From assembly GCA_026770705.1 (NCBI GenBank), contig JANJGN010000034.1:15686001-15750000 (forward strand): a stretch of DNA of 64,000 bases, given 5' to 3'. The notes below the pieces were generated by a model. That model saw nothing but the letters and a program-made list of their open reading frames with translations, ran no database searches and was not told the DNA's origin. This document shows, piece after piece, positions 31,446-59,100 of the stretch. The number at the start of each line of letters is the position of its first letter. Within the stretch, counting starts at the first letter, position 1. Origin of the DNA: Isurus oxyrinchus. Taxonomy: Eukaryota. Made by a program: the position numbers and the translations under genes.

Positions 31446-31517
31446 GTATCTTCAGAGGAAAGCTGTAACGTATATGTCGGGTGAAGTAGAAATTAAGTTC
31501 TATTTTTGATTGGAAAA

Positions 31518-33504: not shown

Positions 33505-33848
33505 CTGTCACAGAAAGATGGATGATATCAGTTTGCTCCCATTTATAACCCACAGCTATCCTTTTGTAAATGTGACATATATACTGGTTCTGGTCTGACT
33601 CCCTGAGGTCAGAGATCAGAACTGACCAGTTGCCTTGTTCCAGTTGATCTTTGAACAGGTTTGTTCTGTTTCTGAATCGTGGATCTTGTTCTGTCAAATC
33701 ATTGTTCCGAGTGATGAACTTATGCAAAATTTCAGCCTTGGCTGTCTCCCAGACTACCAGTAAATCAGAGACTGAGGCATTGCCTTCGTAGGTACAGGGC
33801 AGCACAACTGCTCCCCAAGGAACCCAGAAACTGGGACAGGCGAGTCAC
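33505..33848 (-). pseudogene. IgV exon of left paralog (B7/BTN-like V-set), frameshifted near its start
   Basis: ttttccag|GT...ACAG|gtgaga boundaries; LPC...W...QDPRFRNRT.LF...GNWS.LISDLR.SD...Y.C. Reads GAGCAGTTGTG where the right copy reads GAGCAGATTGTG. Confidence 0.8.
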
Positions 33849-34469
33849 CTGGAAAAGATTGAAAGTATTTATCCATAGATATAACCTCCCTGCTGGTACA
33901 TTATATCCCAAGTTTCACATGGTTACACTGCGATGCTCGATTGACAAGATACACTGATCAGTAACTCACTGCTTTCATTTCTGTGGGAAGGTTAAAGCTC
34001 AGGAATTAAGGGCCTTCAACTAAAACCAGCCTGTGCTGGGGATTTGTAAGCACAGAGCAGCTGGACAGCACTTTGAATCACATGTTTTTCATTTGTACAC
34101 ATGCTGGGAGAACACATCAGGGTATTGGTCACCTCCCCTTGGGACAAAATTCACAGACTGGGGGTGCACAATGTGAGGTGGAGCTCAGGAACAGAAAACT
34201 GACCCTGAAATGTAAGATTGGAATCCCCAGTCCTGATGACTCTACTCCCCATGCTCTTGGACCATTCCCAGTTCTATTTGATCCCAGGACGGTCTCAGAC
34301 TCCTGATCCCAGTGCTCATGACCCCATCCCAGTCCCACCAGATCCCAGTCACCCATCCGTGTCACCCAGTGTTGCTCAGTGTCCAAATCCCACTCTTCAC
34401 ATCACAGGGGTTAATCTGAAGACATTAACTGCCCTCCTTTCAACTCTCATGATCATTATTTTATGAATA

Positions 34470-37370
34470 AAGTATAGTTTTGGAGAAAGAAATCTGAATG
34501 AACATTCCAAATCATTTCAAAATGGTCATTACACAAAGAGCAATGAAATTCAAATTTGACATAATGTTCCACTTGAGATACCTCAATACCACCGTGATAC
34601 ATGTGACATTTAATATATCAAACCAATGTCTAGCATACAGCCCCAGGGATCTATACAATTCCCAGCCTCTCTGTGCGCTCTATCTGGAAGGTCTTAGACA
34701 GTGACCTTGCCCCATTGCATCTTTACGCCGGCTGCTCCAAGCAGTCGTGTGTGTCTCAGCACGTGGTCCTGGTTCTTGGAATGTGCCAGTCTGCAACACT
34801 CGGTCAGGGACAACTCTTTGCACTGGAAAACCAACAGGTTTCGGGTAGACCAAAGTGCGTTTTTCACTGAGTTGATGATCCTCCAGCTGCAGTTGATGTT
34901 TGTCTCGGTGTGTGTCCCTGGGAACAGCCCGTGGAGCGTACAGTCCTGTGTCACGGAACTGCTCAGGATGAACCTCGACAAAAACCACTGTGTCTTGTTC
35001 CAGACCTTCTTTGCAAAAGCACATTCTACAAGAAGTTGAACAATAGTCTCTTCCCCACCATAGCCATCTTCAGGGCAATGGGGGTGAGACTCCTGGCATG
35101 TAGGAAGGTTCTGACGGGGAGGACCTTTCTCACCACCAGACAAGCCATGTCTTGGTGCTTGTTGGAAAGTTCTGGCGACGAGGCTTTCTGCCAAATGCCT
35201 GACAGTCTACACAGGGAACCATCCAACAGGATCCATCATCTCCTTTTCCCACAGGGCCTCAAGGACATTGTATGCAGGCCACTGCCTGATGGGCTTGTGG
35301 TCAGAAGGCATTTTCTGCATAAACTTCTCCATGAGGGACAGGTGGTACGGCATGGTCCAACTATTTGGAGAGTTCCGCGGCAGCGTGGCCAGACCCATCC
35401 TTCACAACCTCAGCACAGAGTGACACTTGCTGTTTGCATACCGAGGGTCTACGCACAACTTGGTGCGACTACACAAAGATGGCCAGCAGGATGAGGGCGA
35501 TGTTGAGCACATCTGTCTCCCACCCACACCTCTCTATCCAGAGCCTCTGGCATCCCCATGGACACAATCCATCTTTGACCTCCGGATAAAAAGTTGAAGG
35601 TGGTTCGGCTGACCACTGCTGCACAAGATCAGGGTACGGGCAACACCTGCACCATGTAAAGCAATGCCCAGAGTGCCTCACACCTCATAATCAATCCTCT
35701 CATTCCCAGATCCTTCCTGATGGACTCAGCAAAGGATTCTACGCAACACACAAACAGGACAGGGGAGAGAGGGCAGCCCTGCCTGACTCCAGATTTCATT
35801 GGAAAGCTTTCTGATTCCCTCGCATTGATTGAAACTACACTAGTGATGTTTGTGTAGAGCAGTTGGATCCAATTGCAGATTACCTCCCCAAACCCCATTT
35901 TGGAGAGCACATCCACTATGTAGGTGTGCGTTATTCCGTCAAAGGCCTTCTCCTGGTCCAGGCTGATGAGGCAGGTGTCCACACCTATGTCCTGTACATA
36001 GTCTTGCACTCCTCAGGGATGAGATCTTCCCAAAGGGTACAACACAGGTCTGGTCAGGCTGGACATCAAATCCAAAGCAGAGGTGACCCGATTGGCAATG
36101 AGCTTGGACCAAATTTTATAGTCCACATTCAGCAGTGAAATAGGTCTAACATTTCTAATTTCCTCCCTTTCCCGCTTCCAACTGTAGGTGGGGGTGATGA
36201 TGCCTTTCCTCATGGATTCTGACATGCTGCCGGCCAGAAGCATACTCTCGTACACTCCCAGGGCCGGGCTGCGCTGGTTGTGTTGCTGTTCTCACAGTCC
36301 TGGAGCTGGGGAACGTTGGCAGCGATGCTGCTCCCAGTGACCCGCAGGTTTTCACTGGGCCCCTGGCCACCTCTGGTGTTTCTCAGCTGGGAACCCTTGG
36401 ACTCCATTACTGCCTTGGTGCTTTGCTGTTTTTCTGGTTGGTAGCGGTTTTCCAGCCCTTCCTCATCTGAGGAGCAGCTGCCGCTGGTGTCTGCTTGGGA
36501 TATTTGCTGCTACTTGCTGCTTGCTTGGATAGCAGCTCTTCCCTTCTGTAATCTTTTCCTCTAAGTTTCTTCTTTTCGCTGTTTGTTAGCCTCCTTGTTC
36601 TGATGGTGCCTCCTCTCCCATCGACTCTGCTTCCAATAGGGAGGCTGAGCAATGTGATCCATTTCTGGAGAGCTCACCACTTCTTGCTCACAACCCTTCC
36701 CCTCTTTCCCACTGCCTTGTGCACCGAGTGCCTTCTGGGAGGTTGGTGCATGTACCTCCCTTGAGGCAGTCCTGCTTGTTGCTCCTGATTTGATTGCCTG
36801 GGGAAGTAGCTAGCACTGCGCTTTGGGCAGGCCTTGTACAGATGGCCGACCTCCCCACCCAGGTGGCAGCATCTGCTCTCTCTACAGTCTTTGGTTAAGT
36901 GGCCTTCCTCCTTGCCGTTTCGACAGAATGTTGCGCTGGTGTTGGTGGCCACATGTCCAATGGGCTGTCCCACGTACACCAAATAGCCTCAACTTCCTCC
37001 GGTGCTGAAGCTGGAGGGAGGGTGGAGAATGATTCAGTTGGCATCTACCTTCAAGGTCACCCTGACCTGTTGTTTGATCACCCAAATGCCATATAAATCC
37101 TTGACTTCTGTGCTGCTTTCAGCCAACTCAATGTACGTGGCGAGGAACACGAGTACATCCAGCACAGCTTGAACGTGTGGATGGTGACCACTGCAATGAC
37201 AGAGGGCACAGGAGCTCAGCAGTGAGGATGGACAATGGCCCTACCTTCCTTTCTCTTTGAAAGCCTTCAGAACCTTGACACATCCTGTGGATTTCAATGT
37301 CAATTGACATTGAAATACCCGCCAGTGGGGAAATCTCGCTGGCGGAAGATATCCACGGCTTCTAACCCAC
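34470..37370 (-). mobile_element. Tx1/L1-clade LINE, heavily deleted (ORF1 zinc knuckles, RT, C-terminal zinc finger)
   Basis: CRNGKEEGHLTKDC and GHLYKACP, RPISLLNVDYKI, SLDQEKAFD, GVRQGCPLSP, EETIVQLLVEC. Confidence 0.8.
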
Positions 37371-37376
37371 AAACAC

Positions 37377-38515
37377 TTGAACAGGCCCCCAAACAGTCAG
37401 AGAGAAATAGATGAGCAGATATGTCGGCAAATTTCAGAGAAGTGTAAAAATAATAGGGTAGTAATCGTGGGGGATTTCAACTTCCCCAACATTAACTGGT
37501 TAATTAGCGTAATGGGTTTAGAGGGAGCAGCATTCTTAAAATGCATCCAGGAGAGCTTTGTAAGCCAGTATACAGAGGGTCCTACAAGAGAGGAGGCGGC
37601 CCTGGATTTAATTTTAGGGAATGAAGCCGGGCAAGTGGTAGAGGTATCGGTGGGGGAGCATTTTGCAGATAGTGATCATAACTCCATTAGATTCCAGGTT
37701 GTTACAGAAATGGACAAGGATGGGCCAGATATCTAAATTGGGGGAAGGCCAATTTTAAAAAGATCAGATATGATTTGGCCAGAGTGGACTGGGAGCAGCT
37801 ACTTTTAGGTAAATCTGCATCAGAGCAGTGGGACTCATTCAAGAAGGAAATAGGGAGAGTACAGGGGCCAACATATTCCAGTAAAGATAAAGGGTGGGAC
37901 CAACAAATCCAGGGAACCCTGGATGTCGAGGGATATTCAAGATTGGATAAAGAGAAAAAGGGAGGCTTATGGCAGATTCCATTGGCTCAAAACAGCGGAA
38001 GGCCTCGAGAAGTATAGGGAGCATGAAAAAACATTGGCAGATAAAATATAGGAAAATCCAAAGTTATTTTACAAGTACATTAAGAGTAAGAGGATAACTA
38101 GGGAAAGAGTAGGGCCCATTAAGGACCATAGTTGTAATTTGTGTGGGGAGCCAGAAGACCCAGGTAAGGTTTTAAATGAATACTGTGTGTCAGCGTTCAC
38201 AGGGGTATGACCTGGGTATGGAAATCAGGCATAAGAACTGTGGTTTAATTAAAGAAATTAGAATAGAAAGGGAGCAGGTTCTAAGTGGTCTGGCAGGCTT
38301 AAAAGTAGATAAATCTCCAGGCCCAGATGAAATGTATTCCAGGCTGTTGAGTGAGGCAAGGGAGGAGATAGCAGGGGCGCTGGCAATAATTTTCAATACC
38401 TGTCTGATCTAGTGCTGGAAAATGGGGGTAGATTAGTTAGGTACTTGTTTGACCGACACAGACTCGATGGGCCGAAGGGCCTTTTTTCTGTGCTGTAGAC
38501 CTCAATGACTCTATG
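37377..38515 (+). mobile_element. CR1 LINE fragment nested in the Tx1-like element
   Basis: VGDFNFPNINW, LDLILGN, SDHN, KSPGPD. Confidence 0.8.
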
Positions 38516-39164
38516 AGCACCCGCTTAACAAAATAATGCCGGTCCGCAGGTACCTCGGTCCAATGTCTTCCCTGTCACCTGAACAGTTATCAGCAACCTC
38601 TGGCCTAGTGCCTGGTGCTTTTCCGTTAAGCAGGTGCTGGAGTTTTTGCTGTATCGACGACATTAGGGCTAAACCAGAATTAAGCTAAGACCAGCATTAA
38701 GATCCACTAAAAGCAGCAGAGCTCAAACTTTGTCTTTGTTGCTGTTTTCTTCATCATCATCATTGTCGTCACTTTGAATTCACCATCAAAATCCACACAA
38801 AAAGTTTCAGGATCATGATGTGTGATGTGAACCTACTGTGTCCAGATCCCACTGTTCACATCACAGGGGTTAATCTGAAGACATTAACTGCCTCCCTTTC
38901 AGCTCTCAGGATCATGATGTGCAATGTGAACCTACTGTGTCCACTCCCTCAATGGCTCCACTTGCAGTACACACAGCTCCTTAAAGCAAGATGAATTCCT
39001 GATTCCCCCCTCCCTTTGATCACTGCTGAAATGTTCCAGCAGTCACAGCACTTACCTGAAACAGCAGCAACAACACTGAGCAGCAACAGGAGTAGTTTCT
39101 GTAAGTTGTGTCCCTGCAACAAGAAAACACAGTTACCCCCCTTTGCAACAGATTCACTTCTGAT

Positions 39165-39423
39165 AAAAACAAAAAAAACTGTGGATGCTGGAAATCCAGA
39201 ACAAAAACAGAATGACCTGGAAAAACTCAGCAGATCCGGCAGCATCGGCGGAGAAGAGAAGAGTTGACGTTTCGAGTCTTCATGACCCTTCAACAGAACG
39301 AGGTGAATCCAAGGAGAGGGGTGAAATATAAGCTGGTTTAAGGTGGAGGGAGAGAAGTGGGGGTGAGGGAGGGCGGTGGTGTTGTAGGGACAAACAAGCA
39401 CTGATAGGAGCAGATCATAAAAC
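39165..39423 (-). mobile_element. Solo Penelope-like repeat with 12-bp TSD
   Basis: TTCACTTCTGAT at 39153-39164 and 39424-39435; absent at the paralogous site near 62160. Confidence 0.8.
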
Positions 39424-39454
39424 TTCACTTCTGATCTGGTTGATGACTGACAGG

Positions 39455-39525
39455 AACGGGATACGCATGCGCCTCGGAGCTGGAGAAAGAGGCCGGGCCC
39501 GGGAGAGGCGCATGCGCACTGAACC
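39455..39525. promoter_or_regulatory. CpG-rich segment with two NRF1-like motifs
   Basis: ACGCATGCGC at about 39463 and GCGCATGCGCA at about 39508. Confidence 0.45.
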
Positions 39526-39579
39526 GGCGAACAATGCTTGGCATCTCCCGCTACACAAACTGAGACTCACCCGGCGTTG

Positions 39580-40427
39580 NNNNNNNNNNNNNNNNNNNNN
39601 NNNNNNNNNNNNNNNNNNNNNNNNNNNNNNNNNNNNNNNNNNNNNNNNNNNNNNNNNNNNNNNNNNNNNNNNNNNNNNNNNNNNNNNNNNNNNNNNNNNN
39701 NNNNNNNNNNNNNNNNNNNNNNNNNNNNNNNNNNNNNNNNNNNNNNNNNNNNNNNNNNNNNNNNNNNNNNNNNNNNNNNNNNNNNNNNNNNNNNNNNNNN
39801 NNNNNNNNNNNNNNNNNNNNNNNNNNNNNNNNNNNNNNNNNNNNNNNNNNNNNNNNNNNNNNNNNNNNNNNNNNNNNNNNNNNNNNNNNNNNNNNNNNNN
39901 NNNNNNNNNNNNNNNNNNNNNNNNNNNNNNNNNNNNNNNNNNNNNNNNNNNNNNNNNNNNNNNNNNNNNNNNNNNNNNNNNNNNNNNNNNNNNNNNNNNN
40001 NNNNNNNNNNCTTCCCCTCTCCCTCCCCCTCCCTCTCTCTCTCTCTCCCCCTCCCTCTCTCCCTCTCTCTCTCCCCCTCTCTCCCCCCTCCATCCCTCTC
40101 TCTTCCTTCCCCTCCCCTCTCTCTCCCTCCCTCCCCCTCACTCTCTCCCTCCCCCTCCCTCCCCCTCCCTCTATCCCTCCCCCTCCCTCTCCCTCTGTCC
40201 CTCCCTCCGTCTNNNNNNNNNNNNNNNNNNNNNNNNNNNNNNNNNNNNNNNNNNNNNNNNNNNNNNNNNNNNNNNNNNNNNNNNNNNNNNNNNNNNNNNN
40301 NNNNNNNNNNNNNNNNNNNNNNNNNNNNNNNNNNNNNNNNNNNNNNNNNNNNNNNNNNNNNNNNNNNNNNNNNNNNNNNNNNNNNNNNNNNNNNNNNNNN
40401 NNNNNNNNNNNNNNNNNNNNNNNNNNN
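39580..40427. other. Assembly gaps flanking a CT-rich low-complexity tract
   Basis: N runs at 39580-40010 and 40213-40427. Confidence 0.98.
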
Positions 40428-41611
40428 TTTCACTCCAACCTGATCCTCATCATTGCTCCGGTCACTTTCCAGCCTTTTTGGATAATCACACACTGTCTCC
40501 AGTAACAGACCCTCATTCCCAGCCCATGGTCCGGTCTGAACCCTGGGCTCTCCCTCCCTCCCTCCACCCGGGACACGGGCTCCAGTCCTCAGTCTGAGCC
40601 CAGCAGCCAGGGGTGAAAACTGTCCAATAATCCCAGTCAGAGAGGATGACGTGTCCCCGAGTCCATCCAACCAGGAGCCGGAGAATAAAGAGCTGAATCC
40701 CGGTGAAGATAAAGGAAAGTTTCCCCCCCCCCCACCCCCCACCCCGGATCCCCCTCCCTCCGCCCGGGTGTGAGACACTGACAGGACCTGCAGCTCCTTT
40801 CCATCCATTCCCCGAGAGAGGGATCCGCTCAGAGCCGGGGACAGGGGGACCACAGGAGAGGGCGAAACGGGTTAGAAACACAATCCAGAATTAAAAATAA
40901 CCGGATGGTATTGAAATCAGTAAAACATCAAAATCAACACAACATTAAATCTCAGTTACAACCGCAACATGGAACTAAATATGAAACTGACTCAACCTGA
41001 ACATAAAACTGACTCAACCTGAACATAAAACTGACTGAACTGGAAACATAAAACTCAGCAACAAAAAACAACTTCAAGGTTGAGATATCTGCAAACAGAC
41101 AACACACATGACAGGACTCTGGCTTGAGAGGGGGGGTGGGTGGGGTGGATCATTCCCGGTCTCTCCTCCCTCTCCCCCCCGGGGCTGAGGTGAACAGTTT
41201 CCCTGGAGGCAAATGTCGGATTATTAATTCACTCCAATCGCCAGAGGGGAAAAGCAACTTTTAACCCGGCTTTTCCTGACAGAGGCTGGGACATTATTCC
41301 ACACCCCACCCCCCAAGCTCACTGACAATGGGTCAGTCCGGCCCCGCCCCCAACTCACCGACAATGGGTCAGTCCGGCCCCGCCCCCAACTCACTGACAA
41401 TGGGTCAGTCCCCCACCCCACCCCCTCCACAACCCCCCTGGTAAAGATCGAATCTTGTCCCTAAAGGGTTAAAGGTCATTTCTGGGACAGAGACTGGTTA
41501 ACGCCTTCCAGGGTTAATGGGGTTTTCACCTCCAGCCCCACCATCCGGCGATGATCCTTTATTTAATAGTTTTCATTTCTTAACTTATTAACATTTTAAA
41601 TTGACTCAGTG

Positions 41612-42326
41612 ATAATAAACCCAGGGTCTGGTTCCTGTATTAAAGGGGTTCAGTCAGATAAACCCAGAGACTGGTTCCTGTATTAAAGGGGTTCAGTCAG
41701 ATAAACCCAGAGTCTGGTTCCTGTATTAAAGGGGTTCAGTCAGATAAACCCAGAGTCTGGTTCCTGTATTAAAGGGGTTCAGTCAGATAAACCCAGTGTC
41801 TGGTTCCTGTATTAAAGCGGTTCAGTCAGATAAACCCAGAGTCTGGTTCCTGTATTAAAGGGATTCAGTCAGATAAACCCACTGTCTGGTTCCTGTATTA
41901 AAGGGGTTCAGTCAGATAAACCCAGTGTCTGGTTCCTGTATTAAAGGGGTTCAGTCAGATAAACCCACTGTCTGGTTCCTGTATTAAAGGGGTTCAGTCA
42001 GATAAACCCAGAGTCTGGTTCCTGTATTAAATGGGTTCAGTCAGATAAACCCAGAGTCTGGTTCCTGTATTAAAGGGGTTCAGTCAGATAAACCCAGAGT
42101 CTGGTTCCTGTATTAAAGGGGTTCAGTCAGATAAACCCAGTGTCTGGTTCCTGTATTAAAGCGGTTCAGTCAGATAAACCCAGAGTCTGGTTCCTGTATT
42201 AAAGGGATTCAGTCAGATAAACCCACTGTCTGGTTCCTGTATTAAAGGGGTTCAGTCAGATAAACCCACTGTCTGGTTCCTGTATTAAAGGAGTTCAGTC
42301 AGATAAACCCAGAGTCTGGTTCCTGC
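41612..42326 (+). repeat. 43-bp tandem repeat, about 16 units (CAGATAAACCCAGAGTCTGGTTCCTGTATTAAAGGGGTTCAGT)
   Basis: Period of 43 read directly (41655 to 41698). Confidence 0.95.
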
Positions 42327-42664
42327 AGTGGCCGATTTAGATCTGAAGGGGTCCTGTGCGCAGCTTCATTTTCGGGTCCCCCAGTTGTTTGGTGGCTGAA
42401 TGTGCTCTTTATATTGGGGTTAAAATGCGCACATGTTCGTACAACGAACGCTCATTTAACATTAATGCTGACTTTCCCAACGGTTGGCTCCGATCTCTTG
42501 TGGTTATTGATTTTACTTTACTAACTGTATCTGTGATTTTTCTCAGATGTCACTCTGCAAAGTTTTCAATAAAACTGAACACGCTGCAAAACGAAAGATT
42601 GGACTCTTTAAATGTACCTTGCGTCAAATATATTTACTAAATAAACTCAATACAAACACAGAGA

Positions 42665-45600
42665 TAAAAACAAAAAAACTGCGGATGCTGGAAATCCAAA
42701 ACAAAAACAGAATTACCTGGAAAAACTCAGCAGGTCTGGCAGCATCGGCGGAGAAGAAAAGAGTTGATGTTTCGAGTCCTCATGACCCTTCAACAGAACT
42801 TGATTTCGAGTCCAAGAAAAAGTTGAAATATAAGCTGGTTTAAGGTGTGTGTGGGGGGGGGGGGGGGCGGAGATATAGAGAGAGAGAGGTGGGGGGGGTG
42901 TGGTTGTAGGGACAAACAAGCAGTGATAGAAGCAGATCATCAAAAGATGTCAACGGCAATGGTACAATAGAACACATAGGTGTTAAAGTTAAAGTTGGTG
43001 ATATTATCTAAACGAATGTGCTAATTAAGAATGGATGGTAGGGCACTCAAGCTATAGCTCTAGTGGGGGTGTTTTTTTATATAATGGAAATAGATGGGAA
43101 AAGGAAAATCTTTATAATTTATTGGAAAAAAAAGGAAGGGGGAAACAGAAAGGGGGTGGGGATGGGGGAGGGAACTCACGACCTAAAGTTGTTGAATTCA
43201 ATATTCAGTCCGGAAGGCTGTAAGGTGCCTAGTCGGAAGATGAGGTCTTGTTCCTCCAGTTTGCGTTGGGCTTCACTGGAACAATGCAGCAAGCCAAGGA
43301 CAGACATGTGGGCAAGAGAGCAGGGTGGAGTGTTAAAATGGCAAGCGACAGGGAGGTTTGGGTCATTCTTGCGGACAGACCGGAGCAACGAATGCAGTAG
43401 ACTAAGTTGGGGGAAATGCAAGTGAAATGCTGCTTCACTTGAAAGGAGTGTTTGGGCCCTTGGACGGTGAGGAGAGAGGAAGTGAAGGGGCAGATGTTAC
43501 ATCTTTTGCGTGGGCATGGGGTGGTGCCATAGGAGGGGGTTGAGGAGTAGGGGGTGATGGAGGAGTGGACCAGGGTGTCCCGGAGGGAGCGATCCCTATG
43601 GAATGCCGATAAGGGGGGTGAAGGGAAGATGTGTTTGGTGGTGGCATCATGCTGGAGTTGGCGGAAATGGCGGAGGATGATCCTTGAATGCGGAGGCTGG
43701 TGGGGTGATAAGTGAGGACAAGGGGGACCCTATCATGTTTCTGGGAGGGAGGAGAAGGCGTGAGGGCGGATGCGCGGGAGATGGGCCGGACACGGTTGAG
43801 GGCCCTGTCAACGACCGTCGGTGGAAAACCTCGGTTAAGGAAGAAGGAGGACATGTCAGAGGAACCGTTTTTGAAGGTAGCATCATCGGAACAGATGCGA
43901 CGAAGGCGAAGGAACTGGGAGAATGGGATGGAGTCCTTACAGGAAACGGGGTGTGAGGAGCTGTAGTCGAGGTAGCTGTGGGAGTCGGTGGGTTTGTAAT
44001 GGATATTGGTGGACAGTCTATCACCAGAGATTGAGACAGAGAGGTCAAGGAAGGGAAGGGAAGTGTCAGAGATGGACCACGTGAAAATGATGGAGGGGTG
44101 GAGATTGGAAGCAAAATTAATAAATTTTTCCAAGTCCCGACGAGAGCATGAAGCGGCACCGAAGTAATCATGGATGTACCGGAGAAAAAGTTGTGGAAGG
44201 GGGCCGGAGTAGGACTGCAACAAGGAATGTTCCACATACCCCATAAAGAGACAGGCATAGCTGGGGCCCATGCGGGTACCCATAGCCACACCTTTTATTT
44301 GGAGGAAGTGAGAGGAGTTGAAGGAGAAATTGTTCAGCGTGAGAACAAGTTCAGCCAGACGGTAGTAGTGGATGGGGATTGTTCGGGCCTCTGTTCGAGG
44401 AAGAAGCTAAGGGCCCTCAGACCATCCTGGTGGGGGATGGAGGTGTAGAGGGATTGGACGTCCATGGTGAAGAGGAAGCGGTTGGGGCCAGGGAACTGGA
44501 AATTGTTGATGTGACGTAAGGTGTCAGAGGAATCACGGATGTAGGTGGGAAGGGACTGGACAAGGGGAGAGAGAAGGGAGTCAAGATAACGAGAAATGAG
44601 TTCTGTGGGGCAGGAACAAGCTGATACGATCGGCCTACCGGGGCAGTTCTGTTTGTGGATTTTGGGTAGGAGATAGAAGCGGGCCGTCCGAGGTTGGGCG
44701 ACTATCAGGTTGGAAGTTGTGGGAGGGAGATCCCCAGAGGAGATGAGGTCAGTGACAGTCCTGGAAACAATGGCTTGATGTTCAGTGGTGGGGTCATGGT
44801 CCAGGGAGAGGTAGGAGGAAGTGTCTGCGAGTTGACGCTCAGCCTCCGCGAGGTAGAGGTCAGTGCGCCAGACAACAACAGCACCACCCTTGTCAGCGGG
44901 TTTGATGACAATGTCAGGGTTGGACCTGAGAGAATGGAGTGCAGTAAGTTCAGAGAGAGACAGGTTAGAATGGGTGAGGAGCAGAGAAATTGAGACGACT
45001 AATGTCGCGCCGACAGTTCTCAATGAAAAGATCGAGAGAAGGTAAGAATCCAGAGGGAGGGGTCCAGGTGGAGGGAGAATATTGGAGGTGGGTAAAAGGA
45101 TCCGTTGAACTGGGAGAGGACTCCTGCCCAAAGAAGTGAGCCCGGAGACGAAGACGGCGGAAGAAGAGTTCAGTATCATGCCGAGCCCGAAATTCATTGA
45201 GGTGAGGGCGTAAGGGTATGAAACTAAGTCCTTTGCTGAGCACTGAACGTTCAGCATCGGAGAGGGGAAGGTCAGGGGGTATAGTGAATACACGGCTGGG
45301 GCTGGGATTGGAAGATGGGGTGGGGACGGAGGGACAGGCTGGGGTGGAGGGTCCTAGATGGGTGTTGGTGTTGATGAGTTATTGGAGCTTGTGTTCCTTA
45401 GCACTTGAGAGAAAGAGAAAAAGTTTCTTGTTGAGGCGTCGGATGAGCCGAAGGATAAAATGAAACTGGGGGCACGCGCAGCTTTGAAAAAGGGTACGGC
45501 GGTGCTGCTGGAGGGAGAGGTCGAGTGTGTTCATATGGCAGCGCATGGCACTGAGTGTGGATTTCAGAATGTGACGGGAACAGCAGTCCGAGAAATGTTT

Positions 45601-48885: not shown

Positions 48886-48888
48886 GCC

Positions 48889-48968: not shown

Positions 48969-48979
48969 TCTTTCTTTTT

Positions 48980-49143: not shown

Positions 49144-49199
49144 CACTTGATGCCGCTGCTGAGCACCAGCGCCACCAGGTGAACAAAGGCCAGTATTGC

Positions 49200-50020
49200 A
49201 GGGAGATTATTGAGCTTTGATGACAAGACTTGCATTGATATAGCAGCTTTCATGGACACAAGATCTCCCAAAGTGATTTATAATCAACAACATACTTTAC
49301 TACTTACAATAAAATAATATACAAACTGGGAAGTGAATTCTTTTTGAACCATGGTAATGCATGAAATGCGGTAGTGAATTTGTGCACAGCAAGCTCCCAC
49401 AAATGCTGTGTCGGGACAAAAGCAGATCACCTGTTTTTAATGATGTGGGTTCAGGGATAAATATTGGGCCCAGGTCATCGGGAAAACTCCCCCCGATTAA
49501 CTTCCAAATAGTGACCATGGGATTTTTCTCATTTCTCTGAGAGAGCAGACAGGCTTCGGTTTAATGTTTCATCCGAACAACAGCATATCCAACAGTGCAG
49601 CTCTCCCGGGATGTGGACCCTCCGACAGTGCAGCACTCACTCAGTACTGACCCTGCGACAGTGCAGCGCTCCCTCGGTACTGACCCTGCGACAGTGCAGC
49701 GCTCCCTCGGTACTGACGCTCGGACAGTGCAGCACTCCCTCAGTGCTGACCATCCGACAGTGCAGCACTCCTTCAGTACTGACCCTCTGACAGTGCAGGG
49801 CTCCCTCAGTACTGACCCTCCGACAATGCAGCACTCCCTCAGTACTGACGCTTCAACAGAGCAGAACTCCCTCAGTACTGTCCCTCCGACAGTGAAGTAC
49901 TCCCTTTAGTGAAACCCCGAAAGTTCAGCACCCCCTCAGTATTGCACTGGGAATGTTAGACTGGATATGGGGCTCATGTCTCTGGAATGGGATTCAGAAG
50001 TGAAAGTGTTCCCCACTCAG
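49200..50020 (-). mobile_element. DeuSINE-like SINE with an internal 33-bp minisatellite (about 10 units, 49595-49945)
   Basis: Unit GACAGTGCAGCACTCCCTCAGTACTGACCCTCC; GGGAGCTTGCTGTGCACAAATT on minus. Confidence 0.7.
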
Positions 50021-51149
50021 TCAATGTTGGATTTTAATACAGACACTCAGCATTGAATCAATGCTGTCCTGAATTGGATCCCAGGAGATGTGAAAACCAA
50101 CCGGTATTTTCAAGGCTGAGAGATTTTGACTCGAAGGGAATTCCAGGATGTGATGATCAGGTGGAAAGTGGAGTTGATGTACAAGATCAGGCATGATCTT
50201 AATGAGGGGGGGAAAGGGTGTTGAGGGGCTGAATGGCCTCCTCCTGCTCCTATTTCTGATGTGTCTGAAATGGATGTTCCCAGTGTGGGATGCACAGCCC
50301 CGCCTTTTCCCCTGTACCATACAGTGTGTAAGGGACCCGGTGGTGTGAGAGACTGAAACCTCCCCAAACTTCCCCGCACCCCTTTGGTTCAGTGGGTAGC
50401 TCTGAGTCTGAAGGTCGTGAGTTCACAGAGCTGCTCCAGAGAGTGGAGCATGAAATTCAGGCCGACACCAGCTTCACTGCGATGCCAGATTAAACCTCCC
50501 CACATCTCTCTTCCCTTCTTTGAGAATCTGCCTAAAACTTTGAATATGTTTTTTCCCCTAATATCCCCTCACGTGGATCTGACTAAAGGACCATCTGGAC
50601 CCCAGAGGGAAAAGATGCCTCAGCCAGAGCAGCAGCTAATATTGATCTCAGTGCTCAGAGTGAGAGAGGGGAATGACTTGTTGACATTCCTGTCCTGGTC
50701 CCTGTCTGGAAACTCCTGCTGGACATCAGGATCAGGCTTCGATGCAATGTTAGATAAACTGCTGAATCTAAAGGATTTGTCTAACAAGGCTCTGCTCTCA
50801 GCAGCGAGTCTTCCTACACAGTGAATGTAGTCACAGAGAAAGGGCTACAACACAGCTGGTCAAATGTTCCAACCCTCACTTACCCTGAGTGAGGATCCAC
50901 ATTGAGGATTAAACCTTGTGAAATTAAATCCCCTCTGTCAAAACTCTGACAGATGAAGGATGGATGTTAATGTGGGGCTAACAGAGGGTGACAGGTATCC
51001 ACATGTCACCATGACTCAGTGGGTAACACACTCACTCAGAGTCTGAAGGCTGTGGGTTTAAACCCCACTCCAGACTGGTGGGGTGGAAGGTGAGGACAAG
51101 GGGACTACTGACATGGTGTTCAGTGGGCAATGGGGGTAGGGTGGGAGGG

Positions 51150-51680
51150 GTCAGAGGGGTGAGAGAATAAGTGCAGGAATTGGGATGAGGGCCTCGTTAA
51201 CCACAGTGTCAGGGAATTGGATAAGGAAAAAGATCAGTTGTACGATCAGAACAGATGTTACCAAGCAGTAGAAACTTGTGAGAAGTATCGTCGAGGTAGC
51301 TGTGGGATTGGGTGGGATTCTAGTGAATATTCTTTGACAGGCCATCCCCAGAAATGGTGACAGAGAATTTGAGGAAAGCAAGAGTTGGAAATGGACTGTG
51401 TGAAAGTGAGGAAAGGGTGGAAAATGAAAGCAGAGTTGAAGAAATTTTCCAGTTCAGGCTGAGAGTCTAAAGCAGCACCAATTCAGTCATCGTCATCAAC
51501 GCAGCAGTAAAAGAGGTGGGGGATGGGGCCCAAGGAGGACTGGACCAAGGAAAGTTCCACATATCCTACTAAAAGGCCGGCAGAGCTAGTGTCCATGTGG
51601 GTGCTCATAGCTCACACCTTTGATGTAAAGTGAGTGAGTGGAGGTAAAGGTGAGAACAAGTTCAGCCAGGTGGAGAAGGA
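51150..51680 (-). mobile_element. Old, degenerate Penelope-like RT relic
   Basis: Diverged but colinear with 43760-44360 (for example GTGAGAACAAGTTCAGCCAG). Confidence 0.6.
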
Positions 51681-52919
51681 TGGAGGCAGGAGGAGAAACT
51701 GGCAGCCAAAGAGAATTTGTGTTTGTGGGGGCTGCAATGTAACTCCATTTATATTAAAAGAGAATTTTTCCTTAAAAGGTGTCTGCAATTCAGTTGTCTG
51801 GGCCCCAAGCTCTGGAAAACTGATCTCATTTTCATCCTCTGACCTAATATCTCCAGATGTGGTTTGGTATCAAATTCTCTTTTAGCATGTTCCTGTGAAG
51901 CACCTTGGGACATTTATAAAACACCTTTAACATTATAAAATATAACTTGTTCATGACGAGGTTCAACAAGTCTGGACTCCTGTCATTATTCAGTTGCTAT
52001 TGTGATGTGTGAACACTATTTCCATGTTCCTGTATTTTCTCTCCTTGTCTGTGTAAGAGTCTCCACCCCTGAAGTTGAATTGCTCTGCTTGTTCATGCCA
52101 AAACCACTTCCACCCCAGGAAAGGTGAAGGGAAATCACACACTCCCTCCCTCCCAATCCCTCTCTCCACGCCTTCCCTTCCCCAGCACCCCAATCACCAG
52201 AAAGGCTGACTTGATGATCATTCCTGTTCTCTGGAAGTTCCCACAATCACAGATACCAGTCTTCAGCCAATCTCATTCACATCTCACATCGGGAGACTTA
52301 CTGCCTGCAGACAGCATGACCTCTGTTCAGGCAGTGACTACCAGAGTCATTAAACATCAGACTGTAGATCCACTCATTTCAGCATCGGTCTATCTTTAAT
52401 TAGACCTTGGATCAAAAATGACATGTAGAAAAGTAAAAAATATACCAGACAGAAATGTATAGACACATTCAGAAAATATTTACATTAGAAATTTTATACA
52501 TCCTTTGTAAAATATGACCACTCACTGTTTGCCACAAAAAACTATATAAAAAAGACAAAATTAAAATATACCGAACATATCTACATAATTTCTGGCAAGA
52601 AACAGTTTCAATCCGTGAACCATCTACAATCTGAATTCAGGATATAAAACAGTTGCTGATAATAACGTCGTTGCTGGTTTTTACCGAGTGGATGCTGCTG
52701 CAGAGGGAGTTTCTGAAGCCTCTTCCCATATTTACCGCTATGGGAGCACAAATCACGACAAGACTGCAGTGGTTCAAGTAGAGATGGACAATAAATAGGA
52801 CCCTGGCAGCATCATCCACACCAAGTGAATAAACACGCCAGGAACTGCCAGATGTTCCCACTCACTCATCAGTAGGAAGTTACCATCTCACACAGGGAGT
52901 GATCAATGGGTTACACAGC

Positions 52920-53132
52920 CCCACCCCCCCCTCCACTTCTCTCTCTCTCCGCCCCCCCACCCCCCCACCCCCACCCCCGACACACACCTTAAACCAGCTT
53001 ATATTTCAACTCTTTCTTGGACTCGAACTCAAAGTTCTGTCGAAGGGTCATGAGGACTCGAAACATCAACTCTTTTCTTCTCCGCCGATGCTGCCAGACC
53101 TGCTGAGTTTTTCCAGGTAATTCTGTTTTTGT
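52920..53132 (+). mobile_element. Solo Penelope-like repeat inserted at the IgV gene stop codon
   Basis: Matches the PLE terminal repeat; the paralogous site near 24671 is empty. Confidence 0.85.
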
Positions 53133-53176
53133 TAAAGATGGTCCTGTACATTCCTGAGATTGGGTTTGGACACAGT
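53132..53176 (-). CDS. Exon 7: TVSKPNLRNVQDHL*
   Basis: cctgttacag| acceptor; the stop position is conserved in the paralog (LRNIQDNL*). Confidence 0.6.
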   Translation of the reverse strand, partial: TVSKPNLRNVQDHL

Positions 53177-56100
53177 CTGTAACAGGAATGCTGAGAGATA
53201 ATGCAGAGAATGAAATACTTGGACAGTTTTCTTAGTAAAGGGATTATAGTTCCACTGGGAGTTTCCCTCCTGAGATTGTGCTGGTCAGGACGGTTTGTAC
53301 AAAGTGGGAAGTGATTGTTGATCCCAATCCTGAGCTCAGACATTCCACCAGGAATCACTAGATAACCACAATACTGGCCTGATTTCCCCCTCCCTGACAC
53401 AGGCTCAGTGCTGGGGAAACTCAGTCAGTGCTGGACAGTCCTGTTCCCCACAAGGTTTTCTTCTCCATCCTGATGCTCAGGTGCTGTTGTCACAAGGCCC
53501 CGTGCTTCACCTGGACAGCTCACCCCTGTCAAAGGGACATCATTAGGTCCTTCATTTCGACTGTTGGAGTGTCGATTTTGAACACAATACCTAGGAGAGA
53601 AAAACCATTACTGTGACAATGTAAGACGCTTCATTTTGAGTGTTCTGGTGTCTATTTTGTGTTCTGGTGTCTATTTTGTTTCCTAGGACAGAAAAACCAG
53701 CAGAGTTCAGGCGACATTAAAAGGATCCAACACTTTGGACAAGTGTGTAAAGGAGCCGTACAGGAGCACAGACCTGATTAAATTACACTCAACATCCTGG
53801 GCACCAATGGCAGCTGGAAAATGGGTCACAGGAGCCGCATGCTGATGGAGCACAGACTGTAGAGGAGAGCAGGCTCACAGGGGAGGCAATGGGCAAGAGC
53901 TGGACCCTCCACAGGAGCTGTGCTGACCGACAGAGGGAGGGCCAGAGGATAGAGTTAGAGAACTCTACAATAGTTCCTCCTCCCACTGCAAGGGGTGTAT
54001 GTGGAGACAGGTGGTGAGCACGGAGATGCGGATATTGAGTGAGCGAAGGGAATTCGAGATGGCCTTCCCAGCGACTGAATCATCTAATATCCGGGTTAAA
54101 GGGCGGTGGTTTGGAAAGTGCAGGAGGAGACTGAACAACAACAACTTGTGTTTATATAGAACCTTGAACAGAACACATCCTAAATGCTTATGAAACAAAA
54201 TTTGACACTGAGCTACACAAGGGTTCAGGCAGTGAGGTAGGCTTTAAGGAGCAAATGGTGTTGTTGGGAGGTAAGGAAGAGAGACAGACACAGACACACA
54301 CAGACAGGCAGAGGTTGAGGGAGGAAATTCCAGAGTTCGGGCCCAGGCAGCTAAAGGCTCAGCCACCAATGATGCAGCGATGGAAAATCAGGGATTCTGA
54401 AGACACCAGAATTGGAGGAGTGCAGAGATCTGAGGGTTGTGGGGCGGAAGGAGGTTACACATGGGGAGGAGTGAGGCCACAGAATGTTTGATAAAAGGGT
54501 GAGAATGTTAAAATCTGTCTATCTCAGTCCTAAATAAAGTCCAAGATGAACAGCGGCAGATTTACAATCAAACCCTTGTGGCACGGGACCCCCCAAACGA
54601 CAGGGGGGGGGGGGGAGATACCAAAATGAGTGAGTGAGTGCTGAACTGTTGGAAGTGCTGTCTTTCAGCTGAGATGTTAAACTGCCTGCTCAGCTGTCTA
54701 GCAGCCTCCTGTGCAGCGAAGTGTTCGGGCACAGCACGCCAAAATTATTCACCAAAACCACTTCCCGGTCTCTGGGCTCAAGCTCGGCCAGGCAATGCAC
54801 TGTGGGCAGCGCACAGCTACCGTTTTCCGTAGCCGGCCAAGCCATAAGACCATAAGATGCAGGAGCAGAAATAGGCCATTCAGCCCATCAAGTCTGCTCT
54901 GCCATTCAATGAGATCATGGCTGATCTGATAATCCTGAACTCCACTTCCCTGCCTTTTCCCCATAACCCCCGATTCCCTTACTGATTAAAAATCTATCTC
55001 AGGCTTGAATATACTTAACGACCCAGCCTCTACAGCCCTCTGCAGATTCACAACCCTCAGAGAAGAAATTCCTCATCTCTGTATTAAATGGGCGAACCCT
55101 TGCTCTGAGAGTATACCCTCTGGTCCTAGACTCTCCCACAAGGGGAAACAACCTCACCGCTTCTACCCTGTCAAGCCCCTTGAAGAATCTTTTATGTTCA
55201 AATAAGGCCACCTCTCATTTTTCTAAATTCCAATGAGTACAGGCCCAACCAACTCAACCTCTCCTCATAACAAAAGCCCCGCAAGCAGCTGTTGACCATG
55301 TGTCAATCCCACCGTCCATCCCGGAGTTATGGCCCAGAAAGCAGTACTCGGTCTCTGCACCATCCTGCAGCCGGGCAGAGAGCCAGCGGCAGGGCACTCG
55401 CACTGGACTGCGCAGGATGACAAGCTGGAAGTGATTGGATAATGCTGCTCAATGATAGGGTGGATTGAAGCATCCTCACAGCTCAGTAAATGGACAGGTT
55501 TAGATGTCAGCAACATTTAAGAAAACATTATAAAACAAAAACAGGATTAAAATGGAAACAATGAAACATTCTTCAACTCACCATTTTTGTTGCCTTTGGA
55601 ATACACAAACCGCAATTCCAGAAAGCAAAACTCCAGCAAAAAAACCAACAGCAACTCCAACTCCAATTCCAAATCCAAATCCAAGTCCAGGCTGTGCTCC
55701 TGTACAAAGTACAGGACCTGGAGACAGAATGAAGACATTAACAGACTGGGACACACTAATAAAATTAACAGCAGACACCTTCGGCACCTAGTGTTTCAGA
55801 ACCAACCCCACTACAAACAGATCCTTGGTTAATTCTAGACCTGGAGGGATGTGAGAGGATACCAATAATCACACACACACCAGGCCACCCCACAGCTTCC
55901 TGCACACACACACACACTGTCCCACAATGTGATAGATACATGCTTTCCAAATTGAGATAACTGGACACTGACCAGCAACAACCTCCGTCCAATTAAACCC
56001 AACAGTCCGCTGAAATAGAGTGGGAATTTTAAACTAAATTGCAGATCAGGAAAGCCACGGGATTGGGTGTAACACGGATTTACACCTGGGACAATATTAC

Positions 56101-59100
56101 TCTCCACTGACTTCAACCAGTGTTACACCCGATCCCTTCACCCAACAGGACGGTTTGGTTATAATTGTACCAAGACTTTCCACACAGAATTCCAGAATGC
56201 TAGTGGGAAGCAGGAATCCTCAGAGTTTTGTATCTGAGAGACAGGAAGGTGAGACTCAAACAGAAATAACAGTTCCAGGTAGTTTCAGGGCCAGTTACAA
56301 GTAACAGTGACCCACACCACTCACTCTCACAGAATCATTCTATGGTGAAATATCACACAGCATTTCAAACCTTCCAACTTTACTACCTGTCTCTGCAGCA
56401 TGTTCAAATGTAAGAGCTGAAAACACATGCAGTAGTTTAGAATCAGATTTACCTGGTACAGGCGTGTTCGGTACAGGTGTTTGAGGTCGCTCTAAAGAAA
56501 ACACCATGTGTTTAGTATTGCGTGTGAAACAAACTGCAAAAATGTTCAAAGACATTTTTTGGGCTTTAGGGAAACACATCCCAGGAGGAACGAGACCCGG
56601 ATCAAACTGATCGGGAAGGATCAGGAACAGGGTCGGCAGAGTGAAAAATCCAACAGGATTGCATTAACTGTGGGGGGTAGAATGGAAGTTTTCCAGAGTT
56701 ACCCTGAGCAGGATCATTCCCAGCAGCCTACATGCCCCTGTGGAGAGAATCCCCACAGGATCCTGGGTCTACTGGGATATACTTTCAAGGTAAGCGCACT
56801 GGGTCTTGTAAAGGCTGCCCGAGAGGTGCGATGGGCCCCACCTCCTGCACCCCGACATTTGGAGCCAGATGGAACAAATTTCTGGAGAGTGAGTGCTGTG
56901 GGGGGGGGAGTGATCACTGGAATCCTCCACATTGGTCTAAACCCCATGAACTCTCACAGCTTTTGGTCAACAATGGGCCTGGAAACCTCCTGCTGCTTAT
57001 TACCTACTGACCTCGCTTAGCTGATGAATCAGAACTCCTCCATGTTGAACACCACTTGGTGTGTGCGGTGAGTGCATTGGTGAGCCAGTGCAGCTTGATA
57101 GCAACGTTAACTTCTTCCATCACCCAGTTTGACAGCTCTGTCCTTCAGGGCTCAGCCAGCTCGCTCAGTGATAGTATTACTGAGCCACCCTTGGTCATGG
57201 ACAGTGAAGTCCCCACTCAGTACATTCTGTGTCCTTGCCACCCTCACTGCTTCCTCCAAGTGGTGTTCAGCATGGGGGCGTACTGATTCATCAGCTGAGG
57301 GAGGGCAGTAGCTGATAATCAGCAGGAGGTTTCCAGGTCCATGTTTGACCTGAAGCTGTGAGACTTCATGGGGCTCAGAGGCAACGTTGAGGATTCCCAG
57401 TGCCACTGACTCCGGACTGTATACCACTGTGCCCCCACCATGTGACAGGACATACCCAGGGATGGTGATAGAGGAGTTTGGGATGTGGGGTTAATTCTGT
57501 GAGTATGACTCTGCCAGACAGCTCTCCCAACTTGGACAGCAGTTCCCAGGTGTTAGTGAAGGGACTTTGCAGTGTCGACTGGGTTGGGTGTGTCTTTGTT
57601 GTATCCTGATTCAATACCTGGGTCACAGCCAGTGATCCATTCAGTTTTATCCTGTTTTGCTCTCCAGCCTTAGATACAAACCGATACAGGTCAGTTAATA
57701 AGCAACTAGGTTAACGTTGGACTGGAGTCACATAGAGAACAGACTGGGTATGGACGGCAGGTTTCCTTCCCTAAAGAGACATTAGTGAACCAGTTGGGGT
57801 TTTACAACAATCCAACAGCTTCAGGGTCACTTTTCCTGGGACCAAATTGATATTTCCAGGTTTGTACTTAAAGAACTGAATTTAAAATCTGACAGTGCCA
57901 TGGTGGGATTTCATTCTCTGGATTATTAGTCCAGGCCTCTGGATTGCTCATCTAGTAATTTAACCACCGACCCCATAAAATCAGGGATTAAATACAGAAT
58001 ACCTGAAACAAAAGCCTCTTACCCAACACAAAGAGATGGACGAGATCAGATTTCACTAAATAATGGAACTCCTCTTTCTTCTTGTAAATCTGACACTCAT
58101 ACACTTTCGTGTCAGACTTCCTGAGGTCAGAGATCAGAATTGACCAGTTGCCTTGTTCCAGTTGATCTTTGAACAGTTTTGTTCTGTTTCTGAACCGTGG
58201 GTCTTGTTCTGTCAAATCATCATTGCCATCCACAAACTTGTGTAAAATTTCAGATCTTGATATTCCCCAAATCACCTGTAAATCTGAGACTGGGACATTC
58301 CCTTTGTAGGTACAGGGCAGCACAATCTGCTCTCCAAGGAACCCGGAAACTGACCAGTCACCTGGAAAAGATTGAAAGCATTTATCCACAGAGATAACCT
58401 CCCTGCTGGTACATCACATCCCAAGCGTCACGTGGTTACACTGCAATGCTCGATTTGCAAGATGCACTGATCAGTAACTCACAGCTTTCATTCCTGTGGG
58501 AAGGTTAAAGCTCAGGCATTAAGGCCTTCAACTAAACCCAGCTTGTGCTGGATATTTGTTCACACAGAGCAGATGGACAGTATTTGAATCACGTTTTCCA
58601 TTTATACACAAGCTGGGAGAACTCATCAGTATATTGGTCACCTGTCCTTTGGAGGAATTCAGAGACCGGGGGTACACAATGTGTGGTGGAGCTCAGCAGC
58701 TGAAAAATGACCCTGAAATGTAATGATATGAACAGGTGGGGTGGGGGTTCCCAAGGATGTAGGAAGGGGTTTGGACAGCTTGGGGGTGGGAGGGAATGAC
58801 GGTCGAATACACTGGGTAGGGGTTTGAGGCAGAACCTGATTTACTTTCTTTATTCTTTCATGGGATGTGGGCATCGCTGGCAGGTCCAGAATTTGTTGTC
58901 CACCCCGAATGGTCCTTGATCTGAGTGGCTTGCTCGGCTACTTCAGAGGACAATTCAGAGTCAACCACATTGCTGTCTGGGTCTGTAGTCACAAAGTCAG
59001 GACAGCAGATTTCGCTTCATAAGAGGGCATTCATAAACCAGATGGCTTTTTACTAAAATCAGAAAGTTTCTTTCATATATTGTAGGTTCGTATTATTATA

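What the first reader, a model, noticed from the sequence alone, without database searches (positions are those of the whole stretch)
33505..58361. Paralogous IgV domains diverge almost only on the GFCC' face
Seen by hand alignment: the D-E strand region is 33/36 identical, the leader peptide is identical and the stalk differs at one residue. In contrast the C-C' region is 9/20 identical and the F-G region 9/29. Known: the GFCC' sheet is the usual ligand-binding face of V-set receptors. Inference: diversifying selection or segmental gene conversion, as in pathogen-driven or allorecognition receptor families.
Basis: partly seen in the sequence, partly recalled or inferred. Interest (0 to 1): 0.7.

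Follow-up and report, generated by a model that had tools for sequence, protein, structure and literature searches.

The report
Shark receptor family with old faces
Two copies of an unstudied shark cell-surface gene family differ mostly on one side of their antibody-like domain, likely the binding side; those differences predate several shark lineages and were likely kept by selection while DNA exchange between copies evened out the rest, and one of the two copies here is broken.

Summary
In detail: 33/36, 9/20 and 9/29 reproduce. The two exons belong to a tandem family of single-IgV, B7-H4-like membrane proteins (21 V-exon matches in this genome, 8 in intact genes). All 60 close relatives found are from sharks. 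Across 38 sequences, outward GFCC' positions vary (entropy 1.84) while GFCC' core (0.44) and outward ABED positions (0.50) do not. This is not simply recent diversifying selection. Silent divergence in the pair is also high in C-C' (0.69) and F-G (0.29) against D-E (0.10). Intron divergence peaks around the V exon (4-7% away from it, 13-17% beside it; p 7e-7), and trees of non-coding segments conflict. The B-type face is shared with basking shark and catshark, the A-type F-G segment with carpet sharks. The site-model signal for positive selection (p about 1e-4) falls to p 0.06-0.23 once segment rates are allowed. Best reading: old ligand-face types kept by selection under paralog exchange, as in CEACAMs and opsins. 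Ligand unknown. New member of a known kind; interest 0.45.

The parts
62409..62432 (-). Gene B candidate first coding exon (ATG, 8 codons, GT donor, phase 0)
   Evidence: the white-shark model P0015 starts with the equivalent exon; splice to the leader not seen
62228..62245 (-). Gene B second candidate first exon; one extra A relative to gene A puts the first ATG out of frame, a second ATG 4 bases on is in frame
   Evidence: same in two other B-type copies
62060..62117 (-). Gene B leader exon (58 nt)
   Evidence: joint to the V exon in 3 of 4 runs
58023..58361 (-). Gene B IgV exon, open frame, 'B-type' face
   Evidence: Pfam V-set 1.4e-10; model pLDDT 94.3; closest fold B7-H4 4gos, TM 0.83
58219..58278 (-). 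Gene B C-C' segment (family codons 30-49), divergence peak 1
58111..58218 (-). Gene B C''-D-E segment (codons 50-85), conserved, with two N-glycosylation sequons
   Evidence: sequons in 61 and 63 of 68 V domains
58024..58110 (-). Gene B F-G segment (codons 86-114), long F-G hairpin, divergence peak 2
56453..56491 (-). Gene B stalk exon (39 nt, Pro/Thr-rich)
   Evidence: joint V-stalk in 3 of 4 runs
55582..55717 (-). Gene B transmembrane exon, Gly-rich 'type 1'
   Evidence: joint to the last exon in 3 of 4 runs
53425..53590 (-). Gene B cytoplasmic-tail exon to the stop, about 55 residues, no ITIM/ITAM
40788..40808 (-). Gene A candidate first coding exon (7 codons)
   Evidence: matches the start of white-shark P0037
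39056..39113 (-). Gene A leader exon, same peptide as gene B
33505..33848 (-). Gene A IgV exon, 'A-type' face, 344 nt against 345 in full-length paralogs
33807..33808 (-). 1-base deletion (GG to G) in codon 13; frameshift with an early stop
   Evidence: not confirmed or refuted by other runs
33701..33760 (-). Gene A C-C' segment
33506..33592 (-). Gene A F-G segment
32120..32158 (-). Gene A stalk exon, 1 residue from gene B
27038..31994 (.). Stretch where gene A lacks about 1.16 kb of gene B's intron-TM-intron DNA; repeat-derived DNA lies here; no TM exon of either type
24896..25069 (-). Gene A last exon; stop at 24993-24991 in the ancestral tail frame

Best explanation
These are two paralogs of a shark tandem family of single-IgV, B7-H4-like membrane proteins whose outward GFCC' residues, likely the binding surface, fall into old types that selection has likely kept distinct while recombination or gene conversion between copies evened out the leader, stalk, tail and most introns. 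Each intact gene encodes leader, one V domain, a short Pro/Thr stalk, a Gly-rich transmembrane helix and a tail without tyrosine motifs (shown). It would therefore act as a ligand or adhesion-type recognition molecule, each type binding its own partner (inferred). The ABED side and core are held by purifying selection, in part for two glycan sequons (conservation shown, cause inferred). Exchange tracts that cross the C-C' or F-G codons would swap specificity and be removed, so silent differences pile up there too, giving two peaks of divergence (pattern shown, mechanism inferred). Some continuing adaptive change at face sites is likely but not established. Gene A in this window is likely a pseudogene.
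For: Gene structure and splicing. Fold. Positions matching PD-L1 hot spots Y56, E58, R113, M115 (register) and Y123 (register inferred) all differ in the pair; the hot-spot list is from passages of PMC6470598. Entropy of outward GFCC' 1.84 vs GFCC' core 0.44 vs outward ABED 0.50, p 9e-5 and 1.5e-5; it holds in 2000 of 2000 one-sequence-per-species resamples, label-shuffle p 1e-5. Old types: the B face is 0.20-0.27 from basking shark and catshark copies but 0.63 from gene A; B clade support 100 with catshark; five hot-spot residues identical in B orthologues of 4 genera. Silent excess: codons with the same amino acid differ at 7/18 in the face segments vs 7/53 elsewhere, p 0.035. Intron divergence A vs B: 7/189, 46/350, 44/264, 18/329, 9/121, 9/138 along the gene, p 7e-7. 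Chimeras: copy 15872 is 0-1/230 from two B copies before the tail but 0.18 before the V exon. AU tests reject all 5 other segment trees for post-leader, pre-V and pre-tail intron data. PHI among 9 A-type copies p 2e-4. Model as stated in passages of PMC3924837 and PMC7042247.
Against: PHI over 16 copies is not significant (p 0.71, 0.32, 0.61). At protein level the back shows no concerted evolution: within/between-species ratio 0.71 for back vs 0.77 for face, so D-E conservation needs no conversion. The silent excess is significant in the 4 pairs tested that contain a B-type copy and in none of the 3 pairs without one, and the pairs are not independent. Equal dS on face and rest is not rejected (p 0.065); under it face omega is 3.9. 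The post-stalk data do not reject 2 of 5 other trees. The A-type plus carpet-shark clade has support 99 in IQ-TREE, but FastTree recovers it only on F-G. No ligand or binding was shown.
Confidence: 0.6

Rival explanations
1. Recurrent diversifying selection alone (pathogen arms race on a receptor or decoy) drives the GFCC' differences; the high silent divergence is a by-product of multi-base changes and small samples.
For: M2a over M1a p 1.3e-4 (11 open V frames), 1.4e-5 (15 copies), 3e-4 (9 A-type) and 1.5e-4 (8 intact genes; high-posterior sites mostly on face or loops: 37, 38, 88, 92, 100, 102, 103, 106, 108). Face omega 2.0. Among the 3 intact B copies, 3 of 3 replacement codons and a 4-codon deletion lie on the face or FG tip, against 1 silent codon. 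13 of the 21 V exons are in damaged genes or relics, i.e. fast birth and death.
Against: The signal falls to p 0.06-0.23 with segment rates; face omega vs 1 p 0.06. The B face is nearly fixed across four genera. Among 4 intact A copies only 4 of 10 replacement codons are on face or loops (30 of 114 codons). It does not explain the intron peak or the tree conflict.
Confidence: 0.22
2. Ordinary structural constraint plus drift: core, glycan sites and the B7-family D-E signature are fixed, the GFCC' surface is free, and many copies are decaying.
For: Overall omega about 1.05-1.2. The D-E motif and sequons are also seen in B7-H4 and B7-H3. The majority of V exons lie in damaged genes, including gene A.
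Against: Exposed ABED positions are as conserved as the core, even without the sequon positions (0.62 vs 1.84). B-type face residues are kept across orders, which drift would not give. Intron heterogeneity is unexplained.
Confidence: 0.1
3. A homophilic self-recognition or allorecognition code: each type binds its own kind in trans through GFCC', so types must stay distinct.
For: Several discrete face types on a shared backbone and a tail without tyrosine motifs; 38 distinct five-residue hot-spot strings among 68 V domains.
Against: Only 3 face types among the 8 intact genes here. Contigs from other individuals show few other letters on gene B's V exon, and the three listed match known paralogs, so no high allelic polymorphism was seen. 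The closest relatives are B7 ligands, which bind other proteins (recalled).
Confidence: 0.08

Closest known systems
B7-H4 (VTCN1), B7-H3 (CD276), PD-L1 V domains
   Same: Best sequence and fold matches (4gos E 1.7e-15, TM 0.83, 30% identity); shared D-E signature and E-strand sequon.
   Different: Single V with no IgC domain, longer F-G hairpin, multigene tandem array rather than single copy (single-copy state and V+C layout of B7 genes recalled).
CEACAM1-related paralogs
   Same: Tandem IgV genes with gene conversion and selection on the CFG face (abstract of PMC8860441). Bovine CEACAM32 is converted in leader and intron but not in the N-domain exon (passages of PMC7042247), the pattern seen here.
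   Different: Unrelated V subfamily; no ITIM/ITAM pairs here; no pathogen ligand known. Here A-B and D-E codons of the same exon are also low in silent divergence.
Red/green opsin 'peak of divergence' under gene conversion (Teshima and Innan model)
   Same: Divergence peaks at selected sites with low divergence in flanking introns (passages of PMC3924837).
   Different: Two peaks inside one exon, a family of about 20 copies, and types shared across shark orders.
Butyrophilin/MOG, chicken BG and Xenopus XMIV single-V genes
   Same: B7-like V domain (MOG and BTN hits); single V plus TM layout of MOG and BG (recalled).
   Different: No B30.2 domain or heptad tail. Not on the contig that holds the MHC class I hits: 31 of 33 on C21, 2 on C16, 0 on C34.
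Teleost NITR/LITR and other diversified Ig receptor clusters
   Same: Lineage-specific tandem V-domain clusters with high V divergence (search listing and abstract start of PMC2442602).
   Different: No cytoplasmic ITIM; B7-type V domain.

Membership tests
Ig V-set domain | V-set fold with B-strand Cys, C-strand Trp, F-strand Tyr-x-Cys | tested here: met
   Pfam PF07686 above cut-off; model and Foldseek; invariant or near-invariant columns
B7 family (canonical) | B7-type V domain closest to B7-H4/B7-H3/PD-L1 | tested here: met
B7 family (canonical) | V followed by an IgC domain (definition recalled; the review was not held) | tested here: not met
   V splices to a 13-residue stalk; only V-set found in P0015 and P0037
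B7 family (canonical) | Binds a CD28-family or related receptor | not testable with these tools
   no partner known
B7-H4 orthologue | Conserved synteny and one-to-one phylogeny with VTCN1 | not tested
   no annotation of contig C34; only two other B7-like V exons noted there
Butyrophilin / BG / MOG (MHC-linked) | B30.2 domain or heptad-repeat tail | tested here: not met
   tail about 55 residues, no such Pfam hit
Butyrophilin / BG / MOG (MHC-linked) | Linkage to the MHC | tested here: not met
   0 of 33 MHC class I matches on C34; class II not searched
Paired inhibitory/activating receptors (CEACAM1/3, NITR, SIRP) | Cytoplasmic ITIM/ITSM in some members, ITAM or charged TM in others | tested here: not met
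   33 homologues with the family tail: the 7 ITIM-like matches all lie in the TM segment; 5 have any Tyr in the last 60 residues; the two TM types have no charged residue in the helix core
Duplicates with selection against gene conversion | Peak of silent and non-coding divergence at the target with low divergence in flanks | tested here: met
Duplicates with selection against gene conversion | Flanks cluster by species while targets cluster by gene type, on DNA | not testable with these tools
   only proteins of other sharks were available; at protein level no such contrast
Positively selected receptor family | omega above 1 at surface sites, robust to rate variation and recombination | tested here: inconclusive
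   p about 1e-4 unpartitioned, 0.06-0.23 partitioned

The most novel reading that the evidence does not exclude
Sharks carry an undescribed germline recognition repertoire: a B7-derived single-V family in which several binding-face specificities have been kept across shark orders and are re-dealt by recombination onto interchangeable leader, stalk, transmembrane and tail backbones (two TM types, and even a different Ig-like ectodomain on the same backbone), serving as a self-marker or ligand code for shark immune cells.
Probability: 0.15. Interest if true: 0.75.

Novelty: new member of a known kind. Interest (0 to 1): 0.45.

Why it matters
Cartilaginous fishes are the oldest living group with adaptive immunity, and their non-rearranging Ig receptor families are poorly catalogued. 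Databases label these genes inconsistently (CD276-like, MOG-like, SCN4B-like, uncharacterised). This defines them as one family with a mapped variable face and named old types, so ligand screens and swap tests can be designed directly. It is also a clear case where codon site models report positive selection that weakens once segment-wise silent rates are allowed. The evolutionary pattern itself is known from CEACAMs and opsins.

Tried and rejected
1) Secreted, TM-less subfamily: first suspected from a stalk-to-tail joint and blastn. Rejected: those copies carry a second TM exon type; only gene A lacks one. 2) Homodimer prediction of gene B's V domain: no verdict (score 0.00, alignment not used); not used as evidence. 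3) Test of gene A's frameshift in 4 other runs at 96% likeness: no contig covered 33687-33800 or bridged the site; no verdict. 4) No holder is on record as RNA; the runs are guessed to be RNA and only exon-exon joints were used. 5) GENECONV-like run test: 3 of 114 pairs pass Bonferroni, but the runs largely mirror rate differences, so they were given no weight. 6) PHI on all 16 copies: not significant. 7) Post-V and pre-stalk distances for copy 15872 (about 0.5) and post-V for the 15766/15787/15828 copies (0.23-0.34) reflect non-homologous DNA and were set aside; those two segments were left out of the AU tests. 8) MHC linkage: not found. 9) Shuffling of C-C' and F-G modules between species (whale-shark P0021 is B-like in C-C' and A-like in F-G): not claimed, since retained ancestral states explain it equally. 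10) IQ-TREE run on the back segment timed out; FastTree was used instead and resolves it poorly. 11) No calibrated shark silent rate was found in passages of two papers, so no ages are computed. 12) Earlier findings: none by place or by sequence. 13) PMC3709836 (B7 family evolution) and PMC1175965 were not held; the first may bear on whether the family is described.
Full report
What is there. The window is G000:C34:15686001-15750000 of a 4.98-Gb genome. It holds two minus-strand paralogs. Gene B has candidate first exons at 62432 and 62245, a leader (62117-62060), a V exon (58361-58023), a 39-nt stalk (56491-56453), a Gly-rich transmembrane exon (55717-55582) and a tail exon from 53590. Contigs of 3 of 4 runs laid on it join leader to V and V to stalk with CT..AC ends on the plus strand, and 3 of 4 join TM to tail; the runs are only guessed to be RNA. 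Gene A has the same leader peptide, a V exon at 33848-33505 and a stalk one residue different. It also has a 1-base deletion in V codon 13, no TM exon of either type and a stop in the ancestral tail frame. Its closest white-shark relative, P0037, has a TM segment. Gene A is likely a pseudogene. If the deletion were an assembly error it would encode a short secreted form; could not decide.

Checking the observation. A sliding window shows two narrow peaks (up to 15 and 18 differences per 40 bases) around a valley of 1-4, with flanking intron at 2-10. An AlphaFold2 model (pLDDT 94.3) matches B7-H4 and PD-L1 best. On strand register the pair differs at 11 of 15 outward GFCC' positions, 4 of 5 CC' loop, 9 of 10 FG tip, 1 of 12 GFCC' core and 1 of 9 scorable outward ABED positions. 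That is 24 of the 40 differences, so 'almost only' is too strong. No solvent accessibility could be computed; the classes rest on alternation and on the PD-L1 register (the G-strand register is inferred). The five positions matching the PD-L1 hot spots listed in passages of PMC6470598 all differ.

The family. The genome has 21 matches to the V exon (a lower bound): 12 at 15.72-15.90 Mb, 5 at 17.50-17.57 Mb, 2 at 7.6 Mb and 2 relics on other contigs. Of 15 gene units examined, 8 look intact (3 B-type, 1 C-type, 4 A-type; for one the first exon was not matched, and for one the tail acceptor is taken). The other 6 exons are relics with stops or indels. All 51 plus 9 proteins found at E up to 1e-12 come from 12 shark species and carry inconsistent automatic names. 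Gene B's V is 96% identical to white-shark proteins, so the genome is likely a lamniform shark. A profile search of 1.84 billion representatives adds further shark members and then multi-V proteins; the 4 of these looked up are from bony fishes (10 of 150 looked up in all). Across 38 sequences, mean entropy is 1.84 at outward GFCC' positions, 0.44 in the GFCC' core and 0.50 at outward ABED positions. This holds with one sequence per species and without the sequon positions. Two glycosylation sequons in D-E are present in 61 and 63 of 68 V domains; tails have no cytoplasmic ITIM-like motif. The cluster is not on the contig with the MHC class I hits.

The faces are old. Gene B's face segments are 0.20-0.27 from basking shark and catshark proteins but 0.63 from gene A; the backs are 0.07-0.12 apart in all these comparisons. 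The B clade includes catshark with support 100 or 0.999, and its five hot-spot residues are identical in four genera. The A-type F-G segment groups with four carpet-shark proteins (0.93; 99 for the whole face, not recovered by FastTree). The split therefore predates the lamniform-carcharhiniform split, well over 100 million years by recalled dates. Back-side conservation across species is purifying selection: the within/between-species ratio is 0.71 for back and 0.77 for face.

Selection. In the pair, kappa-weighted pS/pN are 0.18/0.11 (A-B), 0.69/0.28 (C-C'), 0.10/0.04 (D-E) and 0.29/0.41 (F-G). Codons with the same amino acid differ at 7/18 in the face segments and 7/53 elsewhere (p 0.035). 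This contrast is significant in 4 of 4 between-type pairs tested with a B copy and another gene, besides the window pair, and in 0 of 3 without a B copy. My own codon models favour M2a over M1a at p 1.3e-4 (11 open frames) and 1.5e-4 (8 intact genes). Total tree length per codon is about five times higher in C-C' and F-G than in D-E, with omega 0.7-1.3 in every segment. With segment rates the test gives p 0.06-0.23 and 0.16. For 30 face and loop codons chosen on structure, omega is 2.0 (p 0.06 against 1), and dS is 0.60 against 0.26 in the rest (equal dS not rejected, p 0.065). Positive selection is suggested, not shown.

Exchange between copies. Non-coding divergence between genes A and B runs 0.04 after the leader, 0.13 before V, 0.17 after V, 0.05 before the stalk, 0.07 after it and 0.07 before the tail (chi-square p 7e-7). 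Copy 15872 is 0-1/230 from two B copies before the tail but 0.18 before V. Copy 15895 is 0.03 from gene A and 0.08 from copy 17571 before V, but 0.02 from 17571 in V. Among 13 copies, AU tests reject every other segment's tree for the post-leader, pre-V and pre-tail introns; the post-stalk data reject 3 of 5. PHI is significant among 9 A-type copies (p 2e-4) but not among all 16 (p 0.71). V type is also decoupled from TM type: A-type V exons sit on either TM exon, and basking shark's B-type protein has the TM type that B copies here lack.

How it most likely works. Shown: structure of the genes, the variable face, old types, mosaic flanks. Inferred: each type binds its own partner through GFCC'. 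Conversion or unequal crossing-over homogenises parts that do not set specificity, and tracts crossing C-C' or F-G are selected against, leaving silent and replacement peaks. This is the model described in passages of PMC3924837, and bovine CEACAM32 shows the same leader-and-intron conversion with escape of the ligand domain (passages of PMC7042247). With no tyrosine motifs, a ligand or adhesion role is more likely than direct signalling. Confidence 0.6; pure arms race 0.22; constraint plus drift 0.10; homophilic self-recognition 0.08.

Literature. Six searches of the held library aimed at a description of this family gave none. Passages were read in PMC10751288, PMC12227049, PMC8455134, PMC7677710, PMC11599192 and PMC6795676; PMC8860441 was seen as abstract and outline. 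No supplements were read. Subscription papers, including the B7-family evolution paper cited, were not available, so 'undescribed' is provisional.

Verdict. New member of a known kind; interest 0.45.

Noticed in passing
G000:C34:17542316-17548790 (L028); also C34:17010640-17010876 and 9762879-9763094: The family's leader and type-2 TM exons here flank a different ectodomain exon with no clear Pfam match (weak V-set hint, E 0.056, in relative P0190). Shark proteins P0127, P0136, P0190 and P0042 carry it on the same stalk-TM-tail backbone. The V exon at 17546 in this unit has lost its acceptor.
   Followed up: partly
G000:C34:15744000-15857000: A block of one A-type gene, a degenerate V relic and one B-type gene occurs three times: once inverted (15744-15768 kb) and twice in tandem about 41 kb apart.
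   Followed up: partly
G000:C34:15895829-17575947: Two TM exon types exist; the 15.895 Mb gene and the 17.5 Mb cluster use type 2 with a tail acceptor shifted by 12 bases.
   Followed up: yes
G000:C34:16392574-16392852 (L041) and 16502580-16502852 (L042): Two other B7-like V exons (29-33% identical to gene B) lie between the two clusters; best solved relatives are B7-H3, ICOS ligand, MOG and PD-L1.
   Followed up: partly
window 53425-53500 and homologues: The last 25 or so residues of the tail are strongly conserved across sharks and mostly end in Gln-His, with no tyrosine motif; function unknown.
   Followed up: no
window 58024-58359, ABED positions 15, 17, 65, 77: Exposed hydrophobic residues on the back sheet are conserved family-wide, which could be a dimer surface as recalled for B7-1.
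   Followed up: partly
window 53650-53690: Gene B has a duplicated acceptor upstream of the tail exon; in B copy 15811 use of it would give a short tail.
   Followed up: no
window 58057, 58090, 58231: Contigs of other individuals carry a 12-base FG-tip deletion and two base changes that match B copies 15811 and 15851.
   Followed up: partly
window 283-1386, 15700-16828, 43179-45378: Three near-identical (96-98%) retroelement copies with reverse transcriptase and a GIY-YIG-like motif (Penelope-like by recall), plus many LINE and SINE fragments, including one in gene A's leader-V intron at about 34700-36300.
   Followed up: no
window 41596-42325, 62653-63016, 49191-50296, 63034-63996: 43-base and 33-base tandem arrays recur upstream of both genes, so the duplicated unit extends well upstream of the first exon.
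   Followed up: no
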